From positions 41,742-105,741 of the forward strand of contig CAZSMK010000068.1 in NCBI GenBank assembly GCA_964608095.1: 64,000 bases of DNA. Direction: 5' to 3'. This document shows positions 11,620 through 43,090 of the stretch, in pieces. Source of the stretch: an uncultured Candidatus Sumerlaeota bacterium (GTDB lineage: Bacteria > Sumerlaeota > Sumerlaeia > MWCT01 > JAGHBZ01). Made by a program: the position numbers and the translations under genes. How positions within the stretch are numbered: position 1 is the first letter of the stretch; each line of letters opens with the position of its first letter. Under the pieces are notes generated by a model, which was given only the letters and a program-made list of their open reading frames with translations, was not told the DNA's origin and searched no databases.

Positions 11620-12807
11620 ATGAAATGTTTCGGGCTGAAATTTTGGTTTTTGTACATGGGGATTATTCTCTCGATTTTTCTCTCACCTTCGGTCGGGGGA
11701 GGCGAAATCACAGGCGTGGCAAACGTGGAAAAAATCGCGCGGCTGACCGGAACAAAAGGTTCTGACTCGATAAATCCCACATGGGAAGTCGGCATCGGCG
11801 GCGTTGACCTCGGGCACATGATAAACCATAACGAACGGACATATTTCGTGTTCGGCGATTCGTTCGAGTCGGAGCTACCGCACAGGAATAAGCCCGGTAC
11901 TGGTGTCGGATGGCGCTGGAATACCATGTGCTACACTACGGATACGCAACCGGCGGACGGGATAACGTTCACTCACTGGATAACGGATAGTACGGGAAAG
12001 GCACGCCCCATAATCCAGGACCGGCGACACGATCCAATAACGAACATACCAACGGGTGGCATCAGTGTGGACAACACGCTCATTATCTGGTACATGGCGA
12101 TGAAATTCTGGGGGAATGCGAACGACCCGTGCTGGCAGTCGCATCATGTGGGGCTGGCATACTCCGATGACGATGGCACAACGTTCATCATAAAAAGGCA
12201 GTTTACGCTTCCGGGTACAACAAATTTCGGTATGGTTTCCGCGGCACGTGGAAACGACGACCCACACCTTGGCGATGGATATATCTATATCTGGGGAACG
12301 CCGACGAACCGCTTGGGCGGGGTCAAACTCGCCCGCGTCAAATCCGAACATATCACCAACCTCAACGAGTATCTTTATTTCGGCGGGATGAAGGAGGGCG
12401 CGCCGCTCTGGAGTGATTCCGAAGAATGCTCTCCCTTGATTGTTCCTCCGCCTGTCGGCGAAATGTCCGTCATTTATAACCGCTGGGCAGGGATGTGGAT
12501 CATGATGCATTTCACCTTTGTGGAAGAACCGGTGACCATATACACACAGGGGAAAATTGTGCTGCGACAGGCTCCCGCCCCATGGGGTCCGTGGTCGGAG
12601 CCCATTGACGTCACCACCCACGAGACCTATCCCCTGTTATACGGCTCGTATATGAACCCGCGCTATGTAGAAAACCATGGCGAGTCGGTCTATTTCACCA
12701 TGTCCATGTGGGAACCCTATGATGTGTACTGGATGAAGGTGACCTTCAAGGGCGCACCATCCCGAGGGAGTTTAGGGAAAATGAGGTTTGACCCCAAAAT
12801 TCCCTAA
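11620..12807 (+). CDS. Secreted Asp-box (BNR) beta-propeller glycoside-hydrolase-like protein, possibly DUF4185/sialidase-like
   Basis: 395 aa. N-terminal signal peptide. One canonical Asp-box SDDDGTTF (S-x-D-x-G-x-T-[WF]). Family assignment is uncertain. Confidence 0.5.
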   Translation: MKCFGLKFWFLYMGIILSIFLSPSVGGGEITGVANVEKIARLTGTKGSDSINPTWEVGIGGVDLGHMINHNERTYFVFGDSFESELPHRNKPGTGVGWRWNTMCYTTDTQPADGITFTHWITDSTGKARPIIQDRRHDPITNIPTGGISVDNTLIIWYMAMKFWGNANDPCWQSHHVGLAYSDDDGTTFIIKRQFTLPGTTNFGMVSAARGNDDPHLGDGYIYIWGTPTNRLGGVKLARVKSEHITNLNEYLYFGGMKEGAPLWSDSEECSPLIVPPPVGEMSVIYNRWAGMWIMMHFTFVEEPVTIYTQGKIVLRQAPAPWGPWSEPIDVTTHETYPLLYGSYMNPRYVENHGESVYFTMSMWEPYDVYWMKVTFKGAPSRGSLGKMRFDPKIP

Positions 12808-12813
12808 CTTTTT

Positions 12814-14109
12814 TTAGAGGCGGAGGCGGATGTGGAGCTTGTAGAGAATGTCCGTAATGCCGACCATTGCAAATGCAAAAAGAAGCGAGCGGAAAATTCC
12901 TAACAGCCCTTCGTTCAGATATTGATGGAGAAACGTTATCCCGAGTAAGCCGAGAATAGCGTAAAAAATGTCTGGCAGGATATAGGCGAGAAGCGGGTTG
13001 GCTCCCGCCGGTTTTATAAGTCTCGTCCACCCCACTTCTTTTCTGATGTCGATCAACCAGTAGAAAAACACATAGAGGAAGCAGCATATCCCGGAAGAAT
13101 AAAGACACCACGAGGGAGTCGCCCTGACTTTATTTATTCCATAAAGCGGTCGCAGCAAAAAGCCGGCAACACACAGCGCCACACCGAAGGAAAGAATCCA
13201 GATGATTCGTTGACGCGTATTCCTGACAGGGCTATATTCGAGAAACAGCATGCCCACGATAACGCCCGCAACAGTTATGGACGAATGTCCGCCGATTTGC
13301 CCACCGAGCCACACATAGCGCCGTATGAATCCGAGAAAGGACAATGCGCCGCTTTCGTCGCCGATATAGAGCAGTACCAAAAGTGCCAGAAAACCCATCA
13401 TCGCTTCGATATGTTTTCGAAAAAGGAGATATCCCGCACATGAGGTCAGATACGCCCAACCGATCAAGCCAAGAATCCCCCACCAGCTGGTACGCATCCA
13501 GATGACGTCGTCACCGCTCCCGCCGCGATAGAGAACCGCGGTAGCAATCAAGAGCGCTACCCCGAAAAATCTCAATGTTCTAAAGAGCGGTTTTAGATGT
13601 TCCTTTCCGCGTGGATATTGATTCCATACGAGGATTACACCCACGAACATCATAAAGACCCAGAGGTGTTTGCTCATAATAGCTGCAGACTTGTTATAGG
13701 TATACATATTAACCATAAATACGCCGATAACAAGCAGGGCGAAAGAACGTATTACAATATGTCTCCATATTTTCAGAAGCGAATCACCTTTGTCGCGGCG
13801 TTTTTTTATAGCGAACGGGATCGCCATACCGACAATAAAAAGGAACGCCGGAAACACCACATCTACAAACGTCATGCCGTCCGTCTCGGTGGGCATGTGT
13901 TTCATCCACCACGGGACTCCACGCACGTTACCGAGATCATTGACAAAAATCATTGACAGGATGGTGAGCCCCCGGAAGACGTCGATCGAAACCACGCGCC
14001 CCTCATGCACAACGTGCTGGACTCTTTCTTCTGTTTTGTTCATACTCCTTACACGATGCTTAAAACCAATATGAAAGAGAGATGTACGCATCACTGAATA
14101 TATATTCAA
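12814..14109 (-). CDS. Heparan-alpha-glucosaminide N-acetyltransferase-like (HGSNAT/DUF1624-DUF5009) polytopic membrane acyltransferase
   Basis: 431 aa, about 11 TM segments. N-terminal RVVSIDVFRGLTILSMIFVN matches the HGSNAT TM1 signature (R..S.D.FRG......M.FVN). Start uncertain: TTG 14109, ATG 14091 or ATG 14043. Confidence 0.7.
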   Translation of the reverse strand: MNIYSVMRTSLFHIGFKHRVRSMNKTEERVQHVVHEGRVVSIDVFRGLTILSMIFVNDLGNVRGVPWWMKHMPTETDGMTFVDVVFPAFLFIVGMAIPFAIKKRRDKGDSLLKIWRHIVIRSFALLVIGVFMVNMYTYNKSAAIMSKHLWVFMMFVGVILVWNQYPRGKEHLKPLFRTLRFFGVALLIATAVLYRGGSGDDVIWMRTSWWGILGLIGWAYLTSCAGYLLFRKHIEAMMGFLALLVLLYIGDESGALSFLGFIRRYVWLGGQIGGHSSITVAGVIVGMLFLEYSPVRNTRQRIIWILSFGVALCVAGFLLRPLYGINKVRATPSWCLYSSGICCFLYVFFYWLIDIRKEVGWTRLIKPAGANPLLAYILPDIFYAILGLLGITFLHQYLNEGLLGIFRSLLFAFAMVGITDILYKLHIRLRL

Positions 14110-14218: not shown

Positions 14219-14782
14219 GTGGGAATCGGCAAACAGAGTTTGAGTGACGCAGAGGTCATTCACCGTGTGTTGAGCGGTGACAGGGAAGCGTTCGGCATAC
14301 TTGTAGAGAGATACAGTTCGATCTTTTATGCCTACGCATACAATCTCTGCAGGGATTACGACTCAGCGGCGGACCTGGTTCAGGAAGGCTTGCTGGCGTC
14401 GTATAAAGCCCTTGATCGGTTATCGGATCCGAACAAGTTCACGGGCTGGGTCGCCATGATTATTAAGAACAAGTATCGGGATTTGGGGAGGAAAAAGTCG
14501 ATTCCCACAATCCCCCTTGAGCATCTCAAGGAAAAGGGTTTTGAACCCCCGAATCCCGATACTGCGCTTCCGTTCGCCGACGAAGAACTAAAACTCATCA
14601 TGGGCTATATCGATGCGTTACCGGAAAAATATCGAGAAGTCACGATGCTCAAGTACATTGAAGACCTATCATATAAGGAGATTGGAGAACTGCTGAATGT
14701 GCCGGAAAGCACGGTTGCGATGCGCCTGGTCTATGCGCGCAAGCGGCTGGTAAAAATGGCAAAGGAAGGCGGCTTGCTATGA
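14219..14782 (+). CDS. ECF (sigma-70 family) RNA polymerase sigma factor
   Basis: 187 aa. Region 2 (FGILVERYSSIFYAYAYNLCRDYDSAADLVQEGLL). Region 4 (SYKEIGELLNVPESTVAMRLVYARKRL). GTG start. ATGA overlap with the anti-sigma gene. Confidence 0.85.
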   Translation: MGIGKQSLSDAEVIHRVLSGDREAFGILVERYSSIFYAYAYNLCRDYDSAADLVQEGLLASYKALDRLSDPNKFTGWVAMIIKNKYRDLGRKKSIPTIPLEHLKEKGFEPPNPDTALPFADEELKLIMGYIDALPEKYREVTMLKYIEDLSYKEIGELLNVPESTVAMRLVYARKRLVKMAKEGGLL

Positions 14783-16907: not shown

Positions 16908-18986
16908 GTGCTTAAAAGGGATAATAGTTTGAACAACAATGACGGATTTCTCGGCTTATCACAACGAGTCGTAGTAATTACGGGAACAGCTCTCACCTTA
17001 CTTAATCTTGTCCTTTTGGTTGTTCCACTTCTTCCATCTATTTTTGATCCGAACTTTTATCCTTACGGCGACGATGCCGTCATCGAAATATACACGCTCC
17101 ATGCTACCCGTTTCTCTCAACTCCTCGGTCCTTATTCGAGATATGGATGGAACCATCCGGGTCCCTTCATGTTCTACCTATTCGTTCCTTTATACGTTTT
17201 GTCAGGAAAACTCTCCGGTATGCTTTTTTTCGCTGCCTTTGCGATAAATGTTCTGGCGATTTTTGCGATTCTGTTCCTTCTGGCTACACTCATCGAATCA
17301 AGATTCCCCCTCATTGTTTCGTTAGCCATATTGAATCTATTGATAGCCGGACTCGGACGTGAGGTTCTTGTTAATTCATGGAATCCCTACCTGCTCATAA
17401 CTCCTTGCCTCTTATTATTGTTGCTTCTCGCGAGTTTCGCACAAGGAAACGTAACGCTTTTGCCCCTGATCGCTGTCATAGCGACGTTTTTGATGCAAAC
17501 GCATATCGGGATTATACCTGCGGTCGGCGCAATGATTGTCCTGGCAATAATTCTCTTCATCGCTCGGCACAAGTCGTCATCGGAAAGTTCAGATGAAGAA
17601 CCTCATCGCACAATACACAAGGGTTCTATCCTTTCCTTGGTTCTAACGGTATTAATAGTTCTCGTCCTCTGGTTACCTCCCTGTATCGAAGAATTGAACC
17701 ATGATCCCGGAAACCTCATACGACTACTCAACTTTTTTACCAATCAGGGAACAACCGTCTCCGCTAAGGAGTCCATTGCTACCGTTGTCGGGCAGATATT
17801 TTCTCCATTTATGATACTATGCGGCATAACCGAGGAGAGCCGAATCTGGAAGTGGCAGGGTGGATTGTTTTTATTAATTCTGTGCGCATCCTTGATAGCA
17901 GGTTATAAACAACAACGCTACTCCATGGTCTTCATCTGCTGGTTATCGTTAACGGGAATTTCAGTTGCGCTGCTCTCAGCATTGAAAACCCGGGATCAGG
18001 TCATGGGCTATATGTTTTTCTGGACAGGGGCGTTCGGTGCGGCGGTTCTTTTCGCCGCCTCCCATACTATTTTGCTGTGGCTGCTCTCCATATTCCGCCA
18101 AAAGAATCTACGTATCGCGAGGACTGTCTTGATCCTTTTCATCGTGTTCTTTTGTGTGTGGGCGTATGGCTCGAGTTTTTTGCACATCCTGAGAGATTCC
18201 ACAAACCCTTTGAGGGAAGTCTATGATATGGAAAGAATGTACGAGAAATTGAAGACGCGCCTAACTGAAGCGCCGAAACAGGATTTTCACGTCAGGCTTG
18301 TTGATGGAAATTCATGGCCTCTTGCTACAGGAATCATTTTGCAACTTTACAAACACAACATGGAGTTCAGTATCGAGAAGGATTGGCTTTTTATGTTTGG
18401 TCCACAGTTTAAAGAAAGCGAGAATAAACCAGGAAAGGAAATTCAATTCCTTACTCACCCGCTTTCGTTTGTAGAGATGCGAAACAAGGGACTCGAGCTG
18501 GTAACGAGCGGAGAGGGACTCGGCCGCGAACTTTTTATCTATGTGCTCGACCCTCGAAAGATTCGTCCGCTTCTTCTGGATTCGACTGAACTCCGGGTGG
18601 TGGAAACCTTTAAAACCCACGGGAATCCCGCTCTCGTGAGCGATGGAATCATACCGGAGGATGGCGTCGACTTTAATGATGAGCAATGCCTGATCTTGCT
18701 TGATGACGATTCATACGTCACGCTCTCGGTTCCGGTGCAGCGGACTGACTACAAGGGCATTCTTATTTCCGCGGACGGCAACGATACCTATACAGTTTCA
18801 GGTAAATACGGTGACGAGCCGTTTTCCGAGATTGGGATATTGGCGGAACAGAAGGGATACGGAATGAGGACAAGGATGTGTGTTATCGATAATCTATCAA
18901 GTTATAGTGTAATTCGCATTTCACCGCGTTCAGGGGACGGGTATTACTCGATCGGTGAAGTCAGCTTTCTGGTTTCAAAGGAATAA
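16908..18986 (+). CDS. Polytopic membrane protein (about 13 TM, GT-C-like topology) with a C-terminal beta-rich extracytoplasmic domain; function unknown
   Basis: 692 aa. GTG 16908 or TTG 16929 start. Acidic DD/E in the first loop (YPYGDDAVIEIY). Soluble C-terminal domain of about 230 aa. Confidence 0.5.
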   Translation: MLKRDNSLNNNDGFLGLSQRVVVITGTALTLLNLVLLVVPLLPSIFDPNFYPYGDDAVIEIYTLHATRFSQLLGPYSRYGWNHPGPFMFYLFVPLYVLSGKLSGMLFFAAFAINVLAIFAILFLLATLIESRFPLIVSLAILNLLIAGLGREVLVNSWNPYLLITPCLLLLLLLASFAQGNVTLLPLIAVIATFLMQTHIGIIPAVGAMIVLAIILFIARHKSSSESSDEEPHRTIHKGSILSLVLTVLIVLVLWLPPCIEELNHDPGNLIRLLNFFTNQGTTVSAKESIATVVGQIFSPFMILCGITEESRIWKWQGGLFLLILCASLIAGYKQQRYSMVFICWLSLTGISVALLSALKTRDQVMGYMFFWTGAFGAAVLFAASHTILLWLLSIFRQKNLRIARTVLILFIVFFCVWAYGSSFLHILRDSTNPLREVYDMERMYEKLKTRLTEAPKQDFHVRLVDGNSWPLATGIILQLYKHNMEFSIEKDWLFMFGPQFKESENKPGKEIQFLTHPLSFVEMRNKGLELVTSGEGLGRELFIYVLDPRKIRPLLLDSTELRVVETFKTHGNPALVSDGIIPEDGVDFNDEQCLILLDDDSYVTLSVPVQRTDYKGILISADGNDTYTVSGKYGDEPFSEIGILAEQKGYGMRTRMCVIDNLSSYSVIRISPRSGDGYYSIGEVSFLVSKE

Positions 18987-28756: not shown

Positions 28757-29470
28757 ATGCTTAGCGGCTTGACAAAACAGGAACAACACATACTCCTTAT
28801 CCTCATAATAATTATCACGGCAGGATTGGGATTCCGTCACATTCAAGAATCCAGAGACAAAAACCTTGTATACATTGACACTACCGGACAAGATATACCA
28901 GAATCTTCTCTTTCCGGCGTGGATAAAAGCGCCGATGCGACGGGTTGGAATCTTTCCGGCAGCGCAGGAACAAAAAGCCCGGATACCTCTTCCTTGGTAC
29001 CGCCGAAAAAGGATATTAACACCGCAACCGTTGAAGACTTCGACGCAGTGCCCGGAATTGGAAAGACACGGGCTCAGGCAATTATTCAGTATCGTGACCG
29101 GATGGGTGGATTCAAATCGCTCGAACAGGTGAAGGATATAGCCGGCGTGGGTAAAAAAATGTTCGCTCTCCTGGAGAACAATTTTTTCGTTGAAGAGGAA
29201 ACTCCCGCTCGTGCCGCTGATGGATATCCTGATCAGGCGCCACCGGCTGCGCCGCAACAAACGAGTTCAGCGCACGGTTTTGTCAACATCAATACCGCGT
29301 CGGTTCAGCAGTTATGCACCCTTGAAGGAATCGGGGAGACGTTGGCTCAGAGAATTATCGAGTACCGGGAGAAGTATGGTGGATTCAAATCCATCGAAGA
29401 GTTAAAAGACGTACACGGTATCGGCGATGGCAAATTCTCGTTAAACAAAGACAGGATTACGATTTATTGA
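28757..29470 (+). CDS. ComEA-like DNA-binding protein with two helix-hairpin-helix modules
   Basis: 237 aa. N-terminal TM anchor. Two repeats of INTA(T/S)VE/QQL...GIGKT/ETRAQ/LAQRIIEYR...GGFKS(L/I)E(Q/E)(V/L)KD(I/V).GIG, the ComEA HhH signature. Confidence 0.7.
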   Translation: MLSGLTKQEQHILLILIIIITAGLGFRHIQESRDKNLVYIDTTGQDIPESSLSGVDKSADATGWNLSGSAGTKSPDTSSLVPPKKDINTATVEDFDAVPGIGKTRAQAIIQYRDRMGGFKSLEQVKDIAGVGKKMFALLENNFFVEEETPARAADGYPDQAPPAAPQQTSSAHGFVNINTASVQQLCTLEGIGETLAQRIIEYREKYGGFKSIEELKDVHGIGDGKFSLNKDRITIY

Positions 29471-31125
29471 TTTCAGTCTTCATGAAAAAAAATGTCGTTA
29501 TATGGGTGTGCGTTACCCTTCTGGCGATTCTCAATTTCCCTTATTCCGTTGCCGTCTATAACCATATAGGGGAGGATGCCTTTATTACCTTCAGATATGC
29601 GGAGAATCTCGTTGAGGGAAAGGGATTTGTCTATAATCCGGGCGAACGCATCGAAGGTTACTCCAACTTTTTATGGCTTATTCTCCTCGCCTTCTTCTAC
29701 TGGTTGGGATGCAATATTATAGTGGTCTCCAGGATACTCGGCGCTGCTGCGAATTCCGCATTGATGTTCGTCGTCACCCTCGCCCTCCTGTCCCTTATTA
29801 GAACATGGCGAGGAGAAAAGAACAAACTGCATCCTCTCCTGCTTGTATTTCCTGCAATCCTCGTGTTCTTTAATCCGATGCTCCACTACCACGCTGACCG
29901 CGGTCTGGAGACCTGCTTTTACCTGTTGCTTCTCGCTCTTTCCGGATTTTTCGTAATAGAACGTAACTTCATCGCAGCGGGAGTAGGGTTTGCCGCAGTT
30001 GCTTTTACCCGTCCTGAAGGATTCTTATACGCTGGACTTGCAGGTATATTCATCATGTGGCTTCTCGTTCTCGATGTCCGCTCAACCCATAAACCATTCG
30101 ACCTTCGAGCCTTTCTCAAATTTTCTGTTCCTTTCATCGTCATTTTCGCATCGTTCCTTATATGGCGCCGTCTTTATTTCGGTTACTGGCTTCCCAATAC
30201 GGTGTATGCAAAGGTCAGCAAACTCAATTTTTACTACAGCCCGAGCACAGGACTTCTGTGGCAGTTTTTAAAATCATGGTCCTTTCTTCCCCTTGTAGCG
30301 ACGGCGGGAGCACTATTAATTGTTCTGAATGAGAAGAACTTCTTACTTCGATGGAAAATGCTCTTCCTGCTATCAATGGCGTTCTTTGTGCTTCTCTATA
30401 CAATCGGAATCGGCTATATCCTGGCTGCCCCTTTTCGCCACTATGTTCCATCGATTCCTTACTTCATTGTACTTCTGGGCTTTTGCCTGTTATATGTTCG
30501 AGAAAAGATAAAGCCTGAAACCCGAAACGTCACGATTCCGGTTCTCGTACTTATTATATGGGGTATGAACTTTTACACATATAACAACCTCGATATGCCA
30601 CGCTCGCGGTTGCATGTTCGCACCTTCGACTTCCTCCGGCAATGGGAGTTCGATGAACGGTGGCAATGGTATCGCGAGCCGCCGATATGGCTTGCGGCTG
30701 AAGCAGGCAGATGGGTTCATGAGAACCTTCCCCACAACGCCCTCCTTGCTGCCGACCAGATGGGTCAATTCGGGTATTATTCCCGTCATCACATTATTGA
30801 TACGCTGGGGTTGATGGATACCGAGATTGCCCATAAAGGCTATTCGACCGAGCTGCTGCTGCGGCGCAATCCCGATTACGTGGTCTGGTTTGGCATGAAC
30901 GGCGAGCCCGTGCTTCCCCAGTTTCAACAAACCACCGAGGCGCCGGCGTTCAAAGCACATTATAAACTCGCCTATATTTTACGCGCACGCAATGAAATCG
31001 ACCGGTCGGAATATCTTGTTTACGCCCGACGCGATCTGCTAAACGAGGAGCAGTTGACCGCACCGCCGGAGTATATACTCCTTGGCCTTGATAAGGAATC
31101 ATTCATCCAGCGATGGCGGATATAA
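29467..31125 (+). CDS. Polytopic membrane protein, GT-C-like glycosyltransferase fold (ArnT/PMT-like), function unknown
   Basis: 552 aa, about 12 TM. Acidic first-loop motif HIGEDAFITFRYAENL. The ATG at 29482 is probably the real start (TTG 29467 overlaps the comEA-like stop). Confidence 0.45.
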   Translation: MISVFMKKNVVIWVCVTLLAILNFPYSVAVYNHIGEDAFITFRYAENLVEGKGFVYNPGERIEGYSNFLWLILLAFFYWLGCNIIVVSRILGAAANSALMFVVTLALLSLIRTWRGEKNKLHPLLLVFPAILVFFNPMLHYHADRGLETCFYLLLLALSGFFVIERNFIAAGVGFAAVAFTRPEGFLYAGLAGIFIMWLLVLDVRSTHKPFDLRAFLKFSVPFIVIFASFLIWRRLYFGYWLPNTVYAKVSKLNFYYSPSTGLLWQFLKSWSFLPLVATAGALLIVLNEKNFLLRWKMLFLLSMAFFVLLYTIGIGYILAAPFRHYVPSIPYFIVLLGFCLLYVREKIKPETRNVTIPVLVLIIWGMNFYTYNNLDMPRSRLHVRTFDFLRQWEFDERWQWYREPPIWLAAEAGRWVHENLPHNALLAADQMGQFGYYSRHHIIDTLGLMDTEIAHKGYSTELLLRRNPDYVVWFGMNGEPVLPQFQQTTEAPAFKAHYKLAYILRARNEIDRSEYLVYARRDLLNEEQLTAPPEYILLGLDKESFIQRWRI

Positions 31126-35773: not shown

Positions 35774-36628
35774 ATGTTTAAACGACTTGTCATAATAGGT
35801 GTCGGCTTGATCGGCGGCTCGGTCGGGCTTGCTGCAAAAAGGACAAAGATTGCGGATACCGTTGTCGGCGTGGGTCGAAACCCGGAACATCTGAACCTCG
35901 CCGTCGACTGCGGCGCCATCGATTCGTTCACCACCGATGTAGCAGAAGGAGTGAAAGACGCCGATTTGATTATTCTTTGCCTTCCGGTCGAAGGAATCGT
36001 TGATTTTCTGCCGAAGGTCGCAGCGCATGCAGCGGCGGACGCTCTTGTAACCGACGTTGGAAGCACGAAAAAGATAATCGTAGAAAAAGCGGAAAGTTGT
36101 TTCGGCGAAGGCAAGGCGACCTTTATCGGCTCCCATCCCCTGACTGGCTCGGAGAAAACGGGCGTCACATTCGCTAAAGCCGACTTGTTTAAGGGTGCGA
36201 CCTGTTTTGTGACGGTCACCGACTCGACACCGCGGGAAAAACTCCAGCCGCTGGTCATGTTCTGGCGAAAACTTGGTGCGCGCCCTTTTATTCTGCGACC
36301 CGAACGGCACGATTATCTCGTAGGCACAAGCAGTCATGCCGTTCACTTAACAGCCGCAAGTCTTGTCAGGGCTGTGGGCTCTATGGGAGAAGATCCGAAC
36401 CTGCTTCGGCTGATTGTGGGAAGCGGATTCAAGGATACCACCCGGCTGGCGCTGGGCAACGTCGAGTTATGGGTTGAAATCTGCCGTCATAATGCCGCCT
36501 ATATTGCTGATGCACTGGATAAAATCCAGGGAGAACTCGGGGCGGTCAAGGACGCGCTCGCGAAGGGCGATTTTGATTTCGTCAAATCGTTTCTGGAACG
36601 CGCCCGCTCCACCCGACTCGACCTTTAA
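35774..36628 (+). CDS. tyrA: Prephenate/arogenate dehydrogenase
   Basis: 284 aa. N-terminal Rossmann motif VIIGVGLIGGSVG. PDH catalytic region (GSHPLTGSEK, H...S.H). Confidence 0.85.
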   Translation: MFKRLVIIGVGLIGGSVGLAAKRTKIADTVVGVGRNPEHLNLAVDCGAIDSFTTDVAEGVKDADLIILCLPVEGIVDFLPKVAAHAAADALVTDVGSTKKIIVEKAESCFGEGKATFIGSHPLTGSEKTGVTFAKADLFKGATCFVTVTDSTPREKLQPLVMFWRKLGARPFILRPERHDYLVGTSSHAVHLTAASLVRAVGSMGEDPNLLRLIVGSGFKDTTRLALGNVELWVEICRHNAAYIADALDKIQGELGAVKDALAKGDFDFVKSFLERARSTRLDL

Positions 36629-36808
36629 AATACCGGGGTCAGACCTTCAGTTTACAGTTTAGGTACAGACGACTTTGTGTAATTTTTTAGATGCGCCTCT
36701 TGGCGATGTAAATTGCGAAAGGATTTTTCTGGTGTATCACGTGTTCTTGTGTAAGATATTTTTATCTTTTTTCGTGGAGGCTAAAACGTGAAAATGAGGT
36801 CTGACCCC
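36629..36808 (+). repeat. Inverted-repeat-flanked ~180-bp intergenic/leader element, copy A
   Basis: Begins 1-2 nt after the tyrA stop with aataccGGGGTCAGACCTtcagtttacagtttaggta. Ends with gctaaaacgtgaaaatgAGGTCTGACCCC, which includes the GTG/ATG start of the next gene. GGGGTCAGACCT and AGGTCTGACCCC are reverse complements. Confidence 0.7.
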
Positions 36809-37819
36809 ATTTTAGCGGTCGCGGTGTTGCTATTTGTTTGCATCGTCGCCGTTGCCGCCGCTGAAGAACCGATACATATTTATGGCATTCATTCGTGGGG
36901 TTTCGGAGCAAACGGGATAATGAGCGGTAAACGCGGCTGGTCTGTCGAGGTTATCAATACCGACCCTTTTGCTTATGATCCGACGCCTTCAGATATTCAA
37001 AACGTCCGCAACGAAAATTTCGAGGTCATTATCCGCATAAACAAAATCTTCGGCGAGACGGTGCCCAAAAACTCATCCGAGTGGGATTCCTTTGCACAAC
37101 AGTGTGCGGACAAGGTAAGCCTTTACAAGGAGCATTGTCATATCTGGATCATCGGCAACGAGATGAACGCCGACTTTGAAGGTGACATACCGGTCGGCGA
37201 CTATATCGAGGTTTACACGCGCTGCCGCAACAAGATCAAACAAGTGCAGCCTCAGGCGTGCGTTCTCGTCGCAGCCCTTGCGCCCTGGAATGCCAGCCAG
37301 AGCGGCGTTGGTCCTTATCCCTCAAACCGCCAATGGCTCAACTATATGTACCAGCTCGTAAATACACTCAATGACGATACGGATGGTTACGCGATACATG
37401 CCTACGGCGGACGGGGTGGGGATTCCGACCCACGCGACGACGATGAAATGGGCTTCGGCGTGTTCAAGAAATGGATGGAAATCATTGACAACAATCCGTA
37501 TGCCGTAAGTAAACCGGTCTATCTCACCGAGATGAACCACGCCGCAGACGGGCAAGGCGCGACTCCCGGCTATCCACTCTACGATTATCCCGCCGGTTAT
37601 ATCCAGAAACTCTTCGAAGCGATTAATGACTGGAACGAGACCCACACACACATGATACAATGCGCATGCTGGTTTTCGTATGCAAACGGCGGTTTCCCCG
37701 GATATAACATTACCCTCAACTCGCAGATGCGTGATGATTTCCTCGAGACCACGAGCACGACAAATTATTACAACCGCTTGTTGAGTGTCCAACCCGCCAC
37801 ATGGCGAAGATATTTTTAA
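36788..37819 (+). CDS. Secreted glycoside hydrolase of clan GH-A (GH5-like TIM barrel)
   Basis: 343 aa. Signal peptide. NE(P/M) acid/base motif HIWIIGNEMN. H.Y (AIHAYGG). Nucleophile motif VYLTEMNH. First codons are supplied by repeat copy A. Confidence 0.6.
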   Translation: MKMRSDPILAVAVLLFVCIVAVAAAEEPIHIYGIHSWGFGANGIMSGKRGWSVEVINTDPFAYDPTPSDIQNVRNENFEVIIRINKIFGETVPKNSSEWDSFAQQCADKVSLYKEHCHIWIIGNEMNADFEGDIPVGDYIEVYTRCRNKIKQVQPQACVLVAALAPWNASQSGVGPYPSNRQWLNYMYQLVNTLNDDTDGYAIHAYGGRGGDSDPRDDDEMGFGVFKKWMEIIDNNPYAVSKPVYLTEMNHAADGQGATPGYPLYDYPAGYIQKLFEAINDWNETHTHMIQCACWFSYANGGFPGYNITLNSQMRDDFLETTSTTNYYNRLLSVQPATWRRYF

Positions 37820-38010
37820 ATACCGGGGTCAGACCTTCAGTTTACAGTTTAGGTATTGACGGTTTTGTTTAAAACCTTATTCCACACACTTCTTTTTCTT
37901 TATGAATCCTGAAAAGCATAAGAGATTTTCTTGGTGTATCGCATGTTCTTGTGTAAGGTAGTTTTTATTTTTATGGTGAATGCTAAAACGTGAAAATGAG
38001 GGTTGACCCC
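37820..38010 (+). repeat. Inverted-repeat-flanked ~190-bp intergenic/leader element, copy B
   Basis: The first 38 nt after the GH stop are identical to copy A (ataccggggtcagaccttcagtttacagtttaggta). The 3' block gctaaaacgtgaaaatgagggttgacccc is identical to copy A apart from two changes in its last 11 nt (tctgacccc vs gttgacccc). Centre is divergent but alignable (tggtgtatc.c.tgttcttgtgtaag). Confidence 0.7.
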
Positions 38011-39522
38011 AAATTAGGGCTGATTGTTGCTGCGGTGCTGTATGCCGTTATTGTTCCGCTTCATTGGTCTGAAGGGTATATCGATTTCGGCGACGGGAAT
38101 TATATGTACATCTCGTGGCGGATGGCTAACGGCGCAACACTCTACCGCGATATCATGGCCCCTCAACCTCCTGTGCATCTGTGTCTCGGTACCGTGATTA
38201 TAAAAACCGCCAACCTCCTCAATCTCCCGGATATTTATTCGTTTCGAGCCTTCAGCCTGTTTCTCCACCTGCTCACCCTCTTTATTATGTATATTGTTGC
38301 GCGACGCATCTTCGGTCGTACGGATATAGCCTCTCTCGCCGCTATCGTCTATCTTATCTTACCCATCGGGTTCTGGTGGTCGCTGGGTTACCAGAGCGAA
38401 CCGACCGAAATTGTGTTTCTGCTCCTGATGGTCTACTTTTTTATGTCCGACAAGGCGGGTCACCTCGTCCTCGCTGCGCTTTTTTCAGCGCTTGCCGTGT
38501 TTACGAACATGACAGCCGCGCCGTACGTGGCGTTCACTGCCTTGTACGCACTTATTCGCCGACCCCGACGTTGTCTTTACTACATTATCCCCGGAATAAT
38601 TATAGGCGTAATCGGCATGTCGCTCGCCGAGGTCATAACCGGAGCGTATTTTAGCAACGTCATCTTCAACCAGGTCGGCACGTTCCCCAAAAAAGAGATT
38701 GCCAACGAGACCGCGTTCCAGTATGCGATACGCAAGATCCTGAGCGAAGGAAAAGACGTGTTTGTCTGGGAAGGCGGCTTCATACTCATGGGTGTGTTCG
38801 GCTTATACGCATTTCTGAGAGAATCCCGCCATCACATGAAAGAGTTCATTGCGTGGTTTGCTTTCTTCTCCTGGTGTTCGATTGTGTTCGTTTCTAAAGG
38901 CGGCACCATGGATTATATATTCACGCTTGGAGAGCCTTTCGTGGCGTTATTCGCCGCCTACTTCATCTGGTGGTTTTTTGCGCGCGCAGGACAATCGCTT
39001 CGACCCCTCGGCGATTTAAAAAAGATTGCGGCGGATACTTCGCTTCTCTTACGCATCATACTCCCATGCCTCATGCTTATCCTGGTGTTCGGCATAGGCG
39101 TGCAATTCATAATCGGAACACTCAAACAACGTACCTTCGAGCTCCCCGCAGATGATGTCAAAAAGGTAGAATACTATATAAACAGGTATACCCAACCCGG
39201 AGATACCATTCTCTCGCCGCCCTTTTACGCCTTTCTCACTAAACGCATCATTATCGAAGACTACTCGGAGAACTACATCTGGACTATAAAGTACTGGAAC
39301 GAGCGAATCATTGAAAAGAAACCGGGCAAAGGGGTCGAGAAAGCCCAAAAAATAGCCGCAGCAATCAGGCAAAAGCAACTTCCCCTTCTCATAGTTGACA
39401 TGAACCAAACCGGCAAACTTCCCGAAATCCGTAATGCTATAGAACAATATTATACACCCCTTCTGGATGAACCGTTCCAGACCCTCAACACTCCGCTTAT
39501 GTTCTATATCCCTGCAGAATGA
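37990..39522 (+). CDS. GT-C fold glycosyltransferase-like membrane protein (PMT/ArnT, GT39/83-like)
   Basis: 510 aa, about 11 TM. First-loop motif YRDIMAPQPPVHL is typical of PMT_2/ArnT-type GT-C enzymes. N-terminal VKMRVDPKL shared with the preceding GH gene (VKMRSDPIL). Confidence 0.5.
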   Translation: MKMRVDPKLGLIVAAVLYAVIVPLHWSEGYIDFGDGNYMYISWRMANGATLYRDIMAPQPPVHLCLGTVIIKTANLLNLPDIYSFRAFSLFLHLLTLFIMYIVARRIFGRTDIASLAAIVYLILPIGFWWSLGYQSEPTEIVFLLLMVYFFMSDKAGHLVLAALFSALAVFTNMTAAPYVAFTALYALIRRPRRCLYYIIPGIIIGVIGMSLAEVITGAYFSNVIFNQVGTFPKKEIANETAFQYAIRKILSEGKDVFVWEGGFILMGVFGLYAFLRESRHHMKEFIAWFAFFSWCSIVFVSKGGTMDYIFTLGEPFVALFAAYFIWWFFARAGQSLRPLGDLKKIAADTSLLLRIILPCLMLILVFGIGVQFIIGTLKQRTFELPADDVKKVEYYINRYTQPGDTILSPPFYAFLTKRIIIEDYSENYIWTIKYWNERIIEKKPGKGVEKAQKIAAAIRQKQLPLLIVDMNQTGKLPEIRNAIEQYYTPLLDEPFQTLNTPLMFYIPAE

Positions 39523-42888: not shown

Positions 42889-43001
42889 AGATTCTCCCCA
42901 CTAATCTCCCTGTTTCCCGCCTCCAACTTAAATGCCCGCCTCACTTCCTTCCCGCTTGACCCTTAGCAACGCTCTGTGTTATAAAATATTACTTCCTTTG
43001 T

Positions 43002-43090
43002 GCCGGAGTGGTGGAATTGGCAGACGCGCCGGACTCAAAATCCGGTGGGGTTCACCCCCCGTGAGGGTTCGATTCCCTCCTCCGGCACCA
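43002..43090 (+). tRNA. tRNA-Leu (anticodon CAA), class II with long variable arm, genomically encoded CCA
   Basis: Acceptor gccggag/ctccggc. D-arm gtgg..aattggcag. Anticodon stem ccgga/tccgg with loop ctCAAaa. Variable arm tggggttcacccccgtg. T-arm agggttcgattccct. Ends ..a-cca. Confidence 0.9.

What the first reader, a model, noticed from the sequence alone, without database searches (positions are those of the whole stretch)
36629..38010. Duplicated IR-flanked leader that supplies the start codon and first codons of two consecutive exported-protein genes
Two copies of a 180-190 bp element (36629-36808 and 37820-38010) each begin 1-2 nt after a stop codon and end inside the next gene. The 5' end of each copy is an identical 38-mer carrying GGGGTCAGACCT, followed by a tandem 7-mer CAGTTTA CAGTTTA. 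The 3' end is the 20-mer gctaaaacgtgaaaatgagg followed by the reverse complement AGGTCTGACCCC (copy B: GGGTTGACCCC). As a result, both downstream genes (the secreted GH clan-A hydrolase and the PMT-like GT-C protein) start with nearly the same peptide, VKMRSDPIL and VKMRVDPKL. The centres diverge except for a shared block tggtgtatc.c.tgttcttgtgtaag. Two readings are possible. One is a MITE-like mobile module with 12-bp TIRs that carries an outward promoter, RBS and start. The other is a structured 5' leader in which the 5' arm pairs with the 3' arm lying 2 nt after the ATG, closing about 170 nt into a loop and occluding the initiation region, which would give riboswitch-, thermosensor- or protein-titrated translational control of two envelope glycan enzymes.
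Basis: seen in the sequence. Interest (0 to 1): 0.7.

Follow-up and report, generated by a model that had tools for sequence, protein, structure and literature searches.

The report
Duplicated inverted-repeat intergenic module supplying gene starts
Two diverged copies of a roughly 190-base, inverted-repeat-bounded DNA module replace the spacers before two neighbouring cell-envelope sugar-enzyme genes in an uncultured Sumerlaeota bacterium and give both genes the same ribosome site, start codon and first few amino acids; it looks like a small mobile-type repeat reused as an expression module, not a conserved riboswitch.

Summary
Copy A (36624-36817) and copy B (37814-38019) share an identical 38-mer, a 26-nt mid-block and a 20-mer spanning the start codons. 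Their terminal arms GGGGTCAGACCT/AGGTCTGACCCC extend to about 28 nt of imperfect inverted repeat. A third, solo arm lies at 12777-12798.

Each copy fills exactly the interval from the previous gene's stop codon to about codon 7 of the next gene. The genes are a PslG-like clan GH-A hydrolase and a GT39/PMT-like GT-C enzyme. No homologue of either protein starts with MRxDP. Seven orthologous loci in related Sumerlaeota lack the element.

Divergence between the copies is strongly non-uniform: identical ends, a centre near 50% identity.

Best reading: a lineage-specific, MITE/BIME-like inverted-repeat-bounded repeat used as a portable promoter-like block + SD + start + N-terminal module. In read-through RNA the arms would pair and bury the initiation region (in silico only).

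Missing for a firm mobile-element call: target-site duplications, further copies (only 78 kb of the genome was reachable) and a partner transposase. The arm's outer 17 nt match the Tn3 terminal repeat 14/17, but the rest does not.

Missing for the RNA-regulator idea: covariation, an Rfam match and conservation. Moderate interest.

The parts
36624..36817 (+).
   Evidence: (D1, D2)
36626..36628 (+). TAA stop of tyrA (prephenate dehydrogenase), 6 nt before the 5' arm. The tyrA C-terminus ends at the same alignment column as in orthologues.
36635..36662 (+). 5' arm of copy A. The core GGGGTCAGACCT (36635-46) contains the 9-nt palindrome GGTCAGACC. Tandem heptamers CAGTTTA x2 lie at 36648-61. The outer 17 nt match the Tn3 IR 14/17.
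   Evidence: (I7)
36683..36721 (+). Variable AT-rich centre of copy A (39 nt versus 51 nt in B; about 50% identity)
36729..36757 (+). Conserved mid-block of A, promoter-like geometry: CTGGTG, N17 ending in TGTG, TAAGAT (inferred, weak match to consensus)
   Evidence: (not found by the strict scan)
36776..36780 (+). Shine-Dalgarno GGAGG of copy A, 7 nt before GTG 36788 and 13 nt before ATG 36794
36781..36808 (+). 3' arm of copy A. It spans the GTG/ATG starts and codons 2-7 (KMRSDP). The core is AGGTCTGACCCC at 36797-36808. With its flank it forms the 23-nt near-palindrome AAAATGaGGTCtGACCcCATTTT.
36788..37819 (+). PslG-like clan GH-A glycoside hydrolase with signal peptide. Its first about 7 codons come from copy A.
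37814..38019 (+).
   Evidence: identical in Logan contigs L002/L003
37825..37852 (+). 5' arm of copy B, identical to A's. It starts 5 nt after the GH stop TAA (37817-19).
37931..37959 (+). Conserved mid-block of B: TTGGTG, N17 ending in TGTG, TAAGGT
37983..38010 (+). 3' arm of copy B (core AGGGTTGACCCC, 10/12 complementary to the 5' arm). It spans GTG 37990, ATG 37996 and the codons KMRVDP.
37990..39522 (+). GT39/PMT_2-like GT-C glycosyltransferase. Its first about 7 codons come from copy B.
12777..12798 (+). Solo third copy of the 3' arm (GAAAATGAGGTTTGACCCCAAA). It is read as the non-conserved C-terminal tail (..GKMRFDPKIP*) of the DUF4185 gene 11620-12807.
   Evidence: (D3)

Best explanation
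The locus holds two old, directly oriented paralogous copies of a lineage-specific, non-coding element bounded by inverted repeats. Each is about 175-186 nt between its outer ends, and the alignable unit is about 195-205 nt. A solo arm lies 24 kb away. The element is of the MITE/BIME kind.

Each copy has replaced the native spacer and the first about 7 codons of a gene in the conserved Sumerlaeota cluster trpS-tyrA-GH-GT39-asd. It now acts as a portable expression module.

Shown:
- Each copy supplies the Shine-Dalgarno sequence, the GTG/ATG start and a short positively charged N-terminal peptide, (M)KMRxDP. That peptide is compatible with both a signal peptide (GH) and a membrane anchor (GT39).

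Inferred from sequence:
- The conserved 26-nt mid-block is an internal sigma-70-type promoter with a TGTG extended -10. Transcripts from it would have a leader of about 22-25 nt and lack the 5' arm.

Inferred from folding only:
- In transcripts reading through from the upstream gene, the 5' arm lies 5-6 nt after the stop codon. It pairs with the 3' arm across the start codon, closing about 120 nt into a loop. This raises the cost of opening the SD-start region from about 11 to 18-21 kcal/mol.
- Read-through mRNA would therefore be poorly translated, or would become a double-strand RNase target. Both genes would depend on the module's own promoter.

How the second copy arose cannot be decided. 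It could be transposition in trans, or duplication and recombination within the locus.
For: - Repeat anatomy and significance.
- IR arms of 28 nt at both copies, at the exact boundaries of the repeat unit.
- A solo arm at an unrelated locus shows the arm is dispersed.
- The element is absent from seven orthologous loci of relatives. Six were checked at DNA level (L026-L029 group, L030, L031, L032, L155, L156). For P0002's contig only the gene spacing is known (20-nt gap)..
- MRxDP is absent from all 180 or so homologues, while both N-termini keep ancestral length.
- Upstream genes keep full-length C-termini, so the element begins right at the stop.
- Divergence is non-uniform. The 38-nt identical run is reached in 13 of 100,000 permutations, and the windowed variance in 0 of 20,000. 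This implies constraint or gene conversion on the arms, mid-block and start region.
- The mid-block geometry equals the tRNA-Leu promoter geometry of this genome.
- The closing helix appears in the MFE and centroid of both copies (z -3.2 and -2.2).
- Opening cost is 17.7 / 20.9 kcal/mol with the 5' arm, about 11 without it or with it shuffled, and a mean of 7.6 for 16 other genes.
- Precedents: MITEs with promoters, RNase III-cleaved TIR hairpins and in-frame fusions (PMC10969869, PMC4133298).
Against: - No target-site duplication. Flanks are ATACC/ATTTT for copy A and ATACC/AAATT for copy B.
- Both copies share the left flank TTTwAAATACC including the stop codon, and similarity continues about 9 nt past the 3' arm. 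This fits copying of a block better than two independent insertions.
- Only 2 full copies and 1 arm lie in 78.3 kb.
- No transposase or recombinase lies in the window.
- No related element was found in any public collection beyond the short arm core.
- The promoter-like block scores only 6/12 against the E. coli consensus and was not reported by the scan.
- There are no expression data, and RNA pairing has no covariation support.
Confidence: 0.5

Rival explanations
1. Purely local origin, never mobile. The upstream region and first codons of one gene were copied onto its neighbour. One route is tandem duplication of [element-GH] followed by a deletion that fused the second copy in frame to GT39. 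Both copies were then kept by selection as ordinary regulatory DNA. The arms are simply part of that regulatory region.
For: - The shared left flank includes the stop codon, and similarity runs about 9 nt beyond the 3' arm into the coding sequence.
- No target-site duplication.
- The two copies are adjacent and in direct orientation.
- No other full copy lies in 78.3 kb.
- No relatives anywhere.
Against: - The solo arm at 12777-12798 is 21/22 identical to copy B's arm, at an unrelated locus 24 kb away.
- It does not explain where the first copy came from. Relatives have an 18-129-nt ordinary spacer before GH and different N-termini.
- The IR sits exactly at the unit's boundaries.
Confidence: 0.25
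2. A dedicated cis-regulatory RNA leader (riboswitch, thermosensor or protein-titrated). Its long-range helix gates translation of two envelope-glycan enzymes in response to a signal.
For: - A stable closing helix is predicted in both copies.
- It occludes the SD-start region strongly, by an extra 6.5-10 kcal/mol.
- Perfect conservation of the 38-mer and the 20-mer while the centre decays.
Against: - No Rfam match even at E<=10.
- The putative loop, where a ligand pocket would lie, is the least conserved part.
- Only two paralogues exist. Copy B's two arm changes are uncompensated: one wobble and one mismatch.
- No equivalent leader in seven orthologous loci.
- A likely internal promoter would make transcripts lacking the 5' arm.
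Confidence: 0.08
3. The arms are DNA operators for a dimeric regulator or a site-specific recombinase. Each contains the palindrome GGTC-N-GACC. Two sites about 160 bp apart bracket the promoter and start, allowing loop-mediated repression, or excision or inversion of the GH gene between the direct copies.
For: - The 9-nt palindrome lies in every arm, and copy A's 3' arm is a 23-nt near-palindrome.
- Three 3'-type arms keep 18/18 fixed positions and vary only at two central bases.
- All sites lie next to glycan-related genes.
Against: - No regulator or recombinase gene is adjacent.
- Site C lies at convergent 3' ends, an odd place for an operator.
- The window is generally rich in glycan genes, so the association is not significant.
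- No alternative junction (GH deleted) appears in any assembly.
Confidence: 0.08
4. A Tn3-derived miniature element (TIME). The two direct copies form a TIME-COMP-like composite around the GH gene.
For: - The outer 17 nt of the 5' arm match the verified Tn3 terminal IR 14/17, in register with the element's end. The only such matches in the window are these arms, against 0.11 expected.
- Size, AT-rich interior and possible promoter resemble TIMEs. Direct copies bracketing a gene resemble TIME-COMPs (PMC4133298, PMC13367494).
Against: - The arms are about 29 nt, not 38. The inner transposase-binding part and the terminal TAAG do not align.
- No 5-6-bp direct repeats.
- GH is syntenic in relatives that lack the element, so it was not delivered by a composite.
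- The shared 10-nt core GGGGTCnGAC also occurs in many unrelated REP-like palindromes, so much of the match may be coincidence.
- No Tn3 transposase was seen.
Confidence: 0.07

Closest known systems
Bacterial MITEs that modulate neighbouring genes (Correia/NEMIS of Neisseria, ERIC of enterobacteria, RUP/BOX of pneumococcus)
   Same: - Size of 100-300 bp, with terminal inverted repeats around a non-coding interior.
- Intergenic position inside operons and co-transcription with the upstream gene.
- TIR hairpins that affect mRNA fate; some carry promoters (PMC10969869, PMC3184786).
   Different: - Those families have tens to hundreds of near-identical copies, usually TA or other target duplications.
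- They do not normally provide the start codon of the downstream gene.
- Here only 2 copies and 1 arm are seen in 78 kb, there is no TSD, the centres have diverged to about 50%, and both copies span exactly from stop codon to codon 7.
[quoted passage not shown]
   Same: - GGGGTC.GAC..TCAGT at the outer end (14/17 to the Tn3 IR).
- Element of about 180-260 bp with an AT-rich interior.
- A weak outward promoter is reported for TIME1.
- Two direct copies can bracket a gene (PMC4133298, PMC13367494).
   Different: - Arms are about 29 nt rather than 38-40 nt.
- The inner IR domain is not alignable.
- No 5/6-bp direct repeats and no Tn3 transposase.
- The bracketed gene is ancestral at this position.
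REP sequences / BIMEs (bacterial interspersed mosaic elements)
   Same: - The arm core GGGGTC(A/T)GACC is the core of REP-like palindromes in many genomes.
- BIMEs are mosaics of two inverted REPs separated by a variable linker.
- REPs sit just after stop codons and occur solo as well as in pairs.
   Different: - REPs are 20-40-nt self-complementary hairpins in hundreds of copies, associated with RAYT transposases.
- Here only copy A's 3' arm is self-complementary, the copy number seen is low, the linker is about 120 nt, and it carries an SD and start.
Rickettsia palindromic elements (RPEs) and other in-frame MITE insertions
   Same: A palindromic repeat contributes translated residues to host proteins without destroying them (PMC10969869). 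Site C adds a C-terminal tail, and copies A and B add N-termini.
   Different: RPEs insert inside ORFs and are translated throughout. Here only the last about 20 nt of the element are translated, and it also supplies the initiation signals.
RBS-sequestering 5' leaders (riboswitch expression platforms, RNA thermometers)
   Same: A predicted long-range helix buries the SD and start codon.
   Different: There is no conserved aptamer or loop, no family match and no covariation. The anti-start strand lies 150 nt upstream, next to the previous stop codon, probably upstream of the gene's own promoter.

Membership tests
MITE (generic) | Small (about 30-300 bp) and without coding capacity | tested here: met
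   174 nt (A) and 186 nt (B) between outer ends. There is no ORF of 60 aa or more inside; only the downstream gene's start overlaps.
MITE (generic) | Terminal inverted repeats | tested here: met
   12/12 (A) and 10/12 (B) core, extended to 28 nt at 75%
MITE (generic) | Flanking target-site duplication | tested here: not met
   Flanks are ATACC/ATTTT (A) and ATACC/AAATT (B). No direct repeat of 2-9 nt lies at either boundary.
MITE (generic) | Multiple dispersed copies in the genome | tested here: inconclusive
   2 adjacent full copies and 1 solo arm in 78.3 kb. The rest of the genome is in none of the searchable collections.
MITE (generic) | Cognate autonomous element or transposase with matching TIRs | tested here: inconclusive
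   None in the window plus flanks. Exact arm strings give 0 hits in the genome and viral collections. The whole genome was not available.
TIME (Tn3-derived miniature element) | About 38-bp IRs homologous to Tn3-family IRs (GGGG outer end, conserved inner domain ending TAAG) | tested here: inconclusive
   The outer 17 nt match 14/17 in register (Tn3 IR verified). The inner domain does not align and the arms are about 29 nt.
TIME (Tn3-derived miniature element) | 5- or 6-bp direct repeats at AT-rich targets | tested here: not met
   The targets are AT-rich but not duplicated.
TIME (Tn3-derived miniature element) | Mobilised in trans by a Tn3-family transposase | not testable with these tools
   Needs the complete genome and an experiment
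REP/BIME | 20-40-nt imperfect palindromes able to form a stem-loop on their own | tested here: inconclusive
   Copy A's 3' arm plus flank is a 23-nt near-palindrome. The 5' arms contain only a 9-nt palindrome.
REP/BIME | High copy number in extragenic space, with an associated RAYT | tested here: not met
   5 arms in 78.3 kb, 4 of them at one locus. No IS200/IS605-like gene in the window. The genome-wide count is unknown.
Known cis-regulatory RNA (riboswitch, thermometer, leader) | Match to a curated RNA family | tested here: not met
   Rfam at gathering threshold on the window finds the tRNA only. Permissive mode on 36450-38150 finds nothing in the element.
Known cis-regulatory RNA (riboswitch, thermometer, leader) | Structure conserved with covariation in orthologous leaders | tested here: not met
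   The element is absent from all orthologous loci. The two paralogues show no compensatory change.
Known cis-regulatory RNA (riboswitch, thermometer, leader) | Stable structure sequestering the SD and start | tested here: met
   In silico only:
Integron gene cassette / attC | attC with RYYYAAC...GTTRRRY cores and a nearby integron integrase | tested here: not met
   No such cores by inspection. No tyrosine recombinase in the window. GH and GT39 are syntenic in relatives.

The most novel reading that the evidence does not exclude
The element is a selected 'translation-insulating expression cassette'. Its own promoter makes short, translatable mRNAs. Its 5' arm, placed right after the upstream stop codon, pairs with the start region only in read-through transcripts and silences them, or marks them for cleavage. 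This uncouples two envelope-glycan enzymes from the housekeeping operon in which they are embedded. The module is portable because it also carries a generic, export-compatible N-terminus. The perfect conservation of both pairing partners in two otherwise decayed paralogues would then reflect selection for this pairing.
Probability: 0.15. Interest if true: 0.6.

Novelty: new variant of a known kind. Interest (0 to 1): 0.4.

Why it matters
If the reading is right, a small IR-bounded repeat in a poorly known, uncultured phylum (Sumerlaeota/BRC1) has rewired two consecutive genes of a conserved cluster. It replaced their promoters, ribosome sites, start codons and first residues with one common module. 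That is a compact natural example of repeat-driven regulatory and N-terminal exchange.

It also matters for annotation. Gene callers already disagree on the GH start.

It offers a testable case of operon-internal insulation by long-range RNA pairing.

It is not a new class of element. MITEs with promoters, hairpin-dependent mRNA effects and in-frame contributions are all documented. The present evidence is purely computational and comes from one metagenomic contig.

Tried and rejected
1. Conserved signal-peptide motif. Rejected: none of about 180 GH/GT39 homologues begins with MRxDP.

2. Element conserved in relatives, which would allow covariation. Rejected: seven orthologous loci lack it.

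3. Exact and degenerate scans for the arms.
- The 5' 23-mer gave 0 hits in the genome collection.
- The arms gave 0 hits in viral contigs.
- The 3' arm pattern in metagenomes gave 22 scattered hits, about the chance number. They are mostly intergenic, in unrelated organisms, and none has the rest of the element.
- NN=TC is over-represented among them. This probably reflects the common palindrome core.

4. Pair scan GGGGTCWGACC-N137-167-GGTCWGACCCC in genomes. It gave at least 119 loci. These are lineage-specific REP-like palindromes, often in arrays. The few MITE-like ones have unrelated interiors: best score 13, null 95th percentile 16, A versus B 52.

5. Raw-sequence literature search returned only primers and viral sequences.

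6. Strict sigma-70 and terminator scans found nothing inside the element.

7. Site C as an intrinsic terminator: the fold is not better than shuffles.

8. Integron cassette, CRISPR and tandem-repeat ideas. Rejected: no integrase, no attC cores, no tandem array.

9. Deletion of UbiA-GT4 caused by copy B. Not supported: the closest relative's contig also lacks those genes.

10. Walking further along the contig is not possible, because look-ups are restricted to window proteins. One look-up failed on the start-codon choice. No alternative junction was found.

11. Sequence-only identification of the GH failed: PDB phmmer and NCBIfam were both empty. It was solved by structure prediction.
Full report
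OBSERVATION

The window is part of a 173-kb contig of an uncultured Candidatus Sumerlaeota (BRC1) bacterium: JGI metagenome 3300001533, contig MLSed_10000004, also present in NCBI.

- Copy A and copy B share a 38-nt identical run, AAATACCGGGGTCAGACCTTCAGTTTACAGTTTAGGTA. It starts 1-2 nt after the TAA stops of tyrA (36626-28) and of the GH gene (37817-19).
- They share a 26-nt mid-block found nowhere else in the window.
- They share the 20-mer GCTAAAACGTGAAAATGAGG, also unique to these two sites.
- The terminal inverted repeat is GGGGTCAGACCT / AGGTCTGACCCC. It is perfect in A and 10/12 in B, and extends to 28 nt at 75% complementarity.
- By alignment the repeated unit is 36624-36817 versus 37814-38019.
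- The downstream ORFs begin VKMRSDPIL and VKMRVDPKL.

A third, solo copy of the 3' arm lies at 12777-12798: GAAAATGAGGTTTGACCCCAAA, 21/22 identical to copy B. That makes 3 matches to the arm pattern where shuffles give none.

The locus is not an assembly artefact. Two independent Logan assemblies reproduce copy B exactly, and both break inside the 38-mer, as de Bruijn assemblers do at repeats.

CONTEXT

The genes are M50 peptidase, trpS, tyrA, [copy A], a 343-aa exported protein, [copy B], a GT39/PMT_2-type GT-C glycosyltransferase, asd, LOR/SDH and ispD, all on one strand.

Sequence methods hardly recognise the 343-aa protein: a sub-threshold DUF5722 hit, nothing in PDB or NCBIfam. A confident model (pLDDT 92.9) is a (β/α)8 barrel closest to PslG/GH39, GH128, GH53, GH5 and GH51. 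The invariant N122-E123 and E246 lie where clan GH-A enzymes have their acid/base and nucleophile.

COMPARISON WITH RELATIVES

The cluster trpS-tyrA-GH-(UbiA-GT4)-GT39-asd is syntenic in related Sumerlaeota.

None of seven independent orthologous loci carries the element. Their tyrA-GH spacers are 18-129 nt of ordinary AT-rich DNA, with no similarity to the element and no inverted repeat.

None of about 180 homologues of either protein starts with MRxDP, even at 80% identity.

The termini are otherwise ancestral.
- tyrA and GH end at the same alignment column as their orthologues.
- GH and GT39 start within about 3 residues of theirs.

So each copy replaces the whole interval from stop codon to about codon 7, and does not simply sit in it.

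At site C the arm lies in a non-conserved 17-residue tail after the conserved end of a DUF4185 protein. It is effectively 3'-flanking DNA read through by the ORF.

AGE AND CONSTRAINT

The two copies are not a fresh duplication. Identity per 20 columns runs 19, 20, 14, 9, 11, 9, 18, 14, 17, 16.

- The 38-nt identical run is reached in only 13 of 100,000 permutations of the mismatches.
- The windowed variance is reached in 0 of 20,000.
- The three 3'-type arms are identical at 18 of 18 fixed positions and differ only at the two central bases, which form codon 3.

Either selection or localised gene conversion keeps the arms, the mid-block and the initiation region while the centre decays.

WHAT KIND OF ELEMENT

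MITE features that are met: small size, no coding capacity, about 28-nt imperfect terminal repeats, an AT-rich interior, a dispersed solo end, and lineage-specific presence.

MITE features that are not met:
- There is no target-site duplication. Flanks are ATACC/ATTTT for A and ATACC/AAATT for B.
- Both copies share the same left flank, including the stop codon.
- No further copy lies in the 78.3 kb I could assemble from the window plus two flanking fetches.
- No transposase or recombinase lies in the window.

The rest of the genome is in none of the searchable collections. Copy number therefore remains the main unknown.

The arms start like a Tn3-family terminal repeat. I first recalled the Tn3 IR from memory. 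I then verified it as the 38-mer at the blaTEM-1 end of Tn3/Tn2 in E. coli plasmids.

Its outer 17 nt at up to 3 mismatches hit only the two 5' arms in the window, in register with the element's end, against 0.11 matches per window expected by chance.

The inner, transposase-binding part does not align, the arms are about 29 nt rather than 38, and there are no 5-bp direct repeats (defining features from PMC4133298 and PMC13367494). Membership of the TIME family is therefore not established.

Inspection shows they are lineage-specific REP-like palindromes built on the 13-nt core GGGGTC(A/T)GACCCC. They are often in clusters or arrays, for example in Massilia, Halomonas and Gaiellales.

Their similarity to the window element is confined to the arm core. 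The few truly MITE-like hits have unrelated interiors.

So the 10-nt core shared with Tn3 is a common theme, which weakens the Tn3 inference. The 190-nt element itself is an orphan. Architecturally it also resembles a BIME: two inverted REP-like arms around a variable linker, with solo arms elsewhere.

HOW IT PROBABLY WORKS

Shown: the element contains GGAGG 7 nt before GTG 36788 (13 nt before ATG 36794) and the start codons of both genes.

Shown: the translated part of the arm encodes (M)KMRxDP. This short, positively charged n-region fits a signal peptide in GH and the cytoplasmic tail before TM1 in GT39, as in relatives (MERTNK, MEKGNK).

Inferred: the conserved mid-block spans exactly a -35-like hexamer, a 17-nt spacer ending in TGTG, and TAAG(A/G)T.
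- That is the same geometry as this genome's tRNA-Leu promoter, TTGACC-N17(..TGTG)-TTATAA.
- It matches the E. coli consensus poorly (6/12) and the strict scan missed it. I treat it as a hypothesis.
- Such a promoter would give leaders of about 22-25 nt that lack the 5' arm.

Inferred from folding: in transcripts reading through from tyrA or GH, the 5' arm pairs with the 3' arm.
- The closing helix is in the MFE and centroid of both copies.
- Opening the SD-to-start region costs 17.7 (A) and 20.9 (B) kcal/mol with the arm.
- The cost is about 11 without it or with it shuffled, and 7.6 on average for 16 other genes.

The simplest functional reading is a portable expression module that also insulates its gene from upstream read-through, or creates a double-strand RNase site, as described for Correia and ERIC elements (PMC10969869).

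Nothing supports ligand or temperature sensing.
- No Rfam family matches even at E<=10.
- The would-be loop is the least conserved part.
- Copy B's two arm substitutions give one wobble and one mismatch, with no compensation.

ORIGIN OF THE SECOND COPY

This is undecided. The shared flank, and similarity running about 9 nt past the arm into the ORF, favour block copying within the locus. An example is tandem duplication of element+GH followed by an in-frame deletion.

The solo arm 24 kb away, and the absence of the element from relatives, show that at least the arm, and originally the element, arrived from elsewhere.

The lack of UbiA-GT4 between GH and GT39 is shared with the closest relative's contig. 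It is therefore not evidence for recombination between copies. No assembly shows a GH-deleted junction.

VERDICT

The riboregulator reading has only thermodynamic support.

I file it as a new variant of a known kind: an IR-bounded intergenic repeat co-opted as a promoter-like/SD/start/N-terminus module for two consecutive genes. Interest is moderate (0.4), and confidence in the overall reading is 0.5. The complete genome and 5'-end mapping would settle most open points.

Noticed in passing
Loci L035-L153 (e.g. L038/L063/L064 Massilia; L044/L060/L075/L119 Halomonas-like; L040, L045, L053, L054, L076, L113, L142 Gaiellales/Actinomycetes): The 13-nt palindrome GGGGTC(A/T)GACCCC is the core of lineage-specific REP-like repeats in many unrelated phyla. 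They often form clusters or about 28-nt periodic arrays, each lineage with its own flanks. In 832 of 1031 occurrences the two bases after GGGGTCWGACC are CC, which completes the palindrome.
   Followed up: partly
L051:1198-1361, L116:4331-4494, L125:28-190: A conserved 164-nt AT-rich element (interior GC 25-29%) bounded by an 18-nt perfect inverted repeat GGGGTCTGACCCCATGTT, in Victivallales-like MAGs. It looks like a genuine MITE. Its interior is unrelated to the window element.
   Followed up: partly
L026:6590-6650 and L032:5930-5990: Relatives share a promoter-like motif upstream of GT39 (GTGTTGATAAAAATAA...TTGAAAAT). The window genome has lost it to copy B.
   Followed up: no
Between GH and GT39: L026 4881-6558, L030 2642-3502; absent in window 37820-37989: Presence/absence polymorphism of a UbiA-like prenyltransferase and a GT4 glycosyltransferase within the conserved GH-GT39 cluster of Sumerlaeota. 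The closest relative's contig (that of P0002) also lacks them.
   Followed up: partly
window 36788 versus 36794; 11620 versus about 11656: Gene callers disagree on starts. GH is 343 aa (GTG, JGI) versus 341 aa (ATG, NCBI). DUF4185 is 395 aa versus 383 aa.
   Followed up: no
window 42955-42990: Clear sigma-70-type promoter with a TGTG extended -10 upstream of tRNA-Leu(CAA) (43002-43090): TTGACC-N17-TTATAA. This shows the organism uses E. coli/Bacillus-like promoter geometry.
   Followed up: partly
window 12770-12825: At the convergent 3' ends of the DUF4185 and DUF5009 genes (6 nt apart), the solo arm sits inside a hairpin GTTTAGGGAA...TTCCCTAAC followed by T7. It is terminator-like by eye, but its fold is no better than shuffles (z -0.33).
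   Followed up: yes
window 14472-14563: An imperfect inverted repeat of 34-nt arms (74% complementary, 24 nt apart) lies inside the ECF sigma factor ORF 14219-14782.
   Followed up: no
L004-L025 (metagenome hits): Among 22 chance-level hits to GAAAATGAGGNNTGACCCCA, NN=TC (the exact copy A sequence) is over-represented, at about 6 of 18 distinct sequences. Two contigs (L019, L022) match 23 nt of copy A. Several hits sit in local palindromes (L020, L025).
   Followed up: partly
window 16908-18986 and 29467-31125: Two large ORFs (692 and 552 aa) have no Pfam family at E<=1e-4.
   Followed up: no
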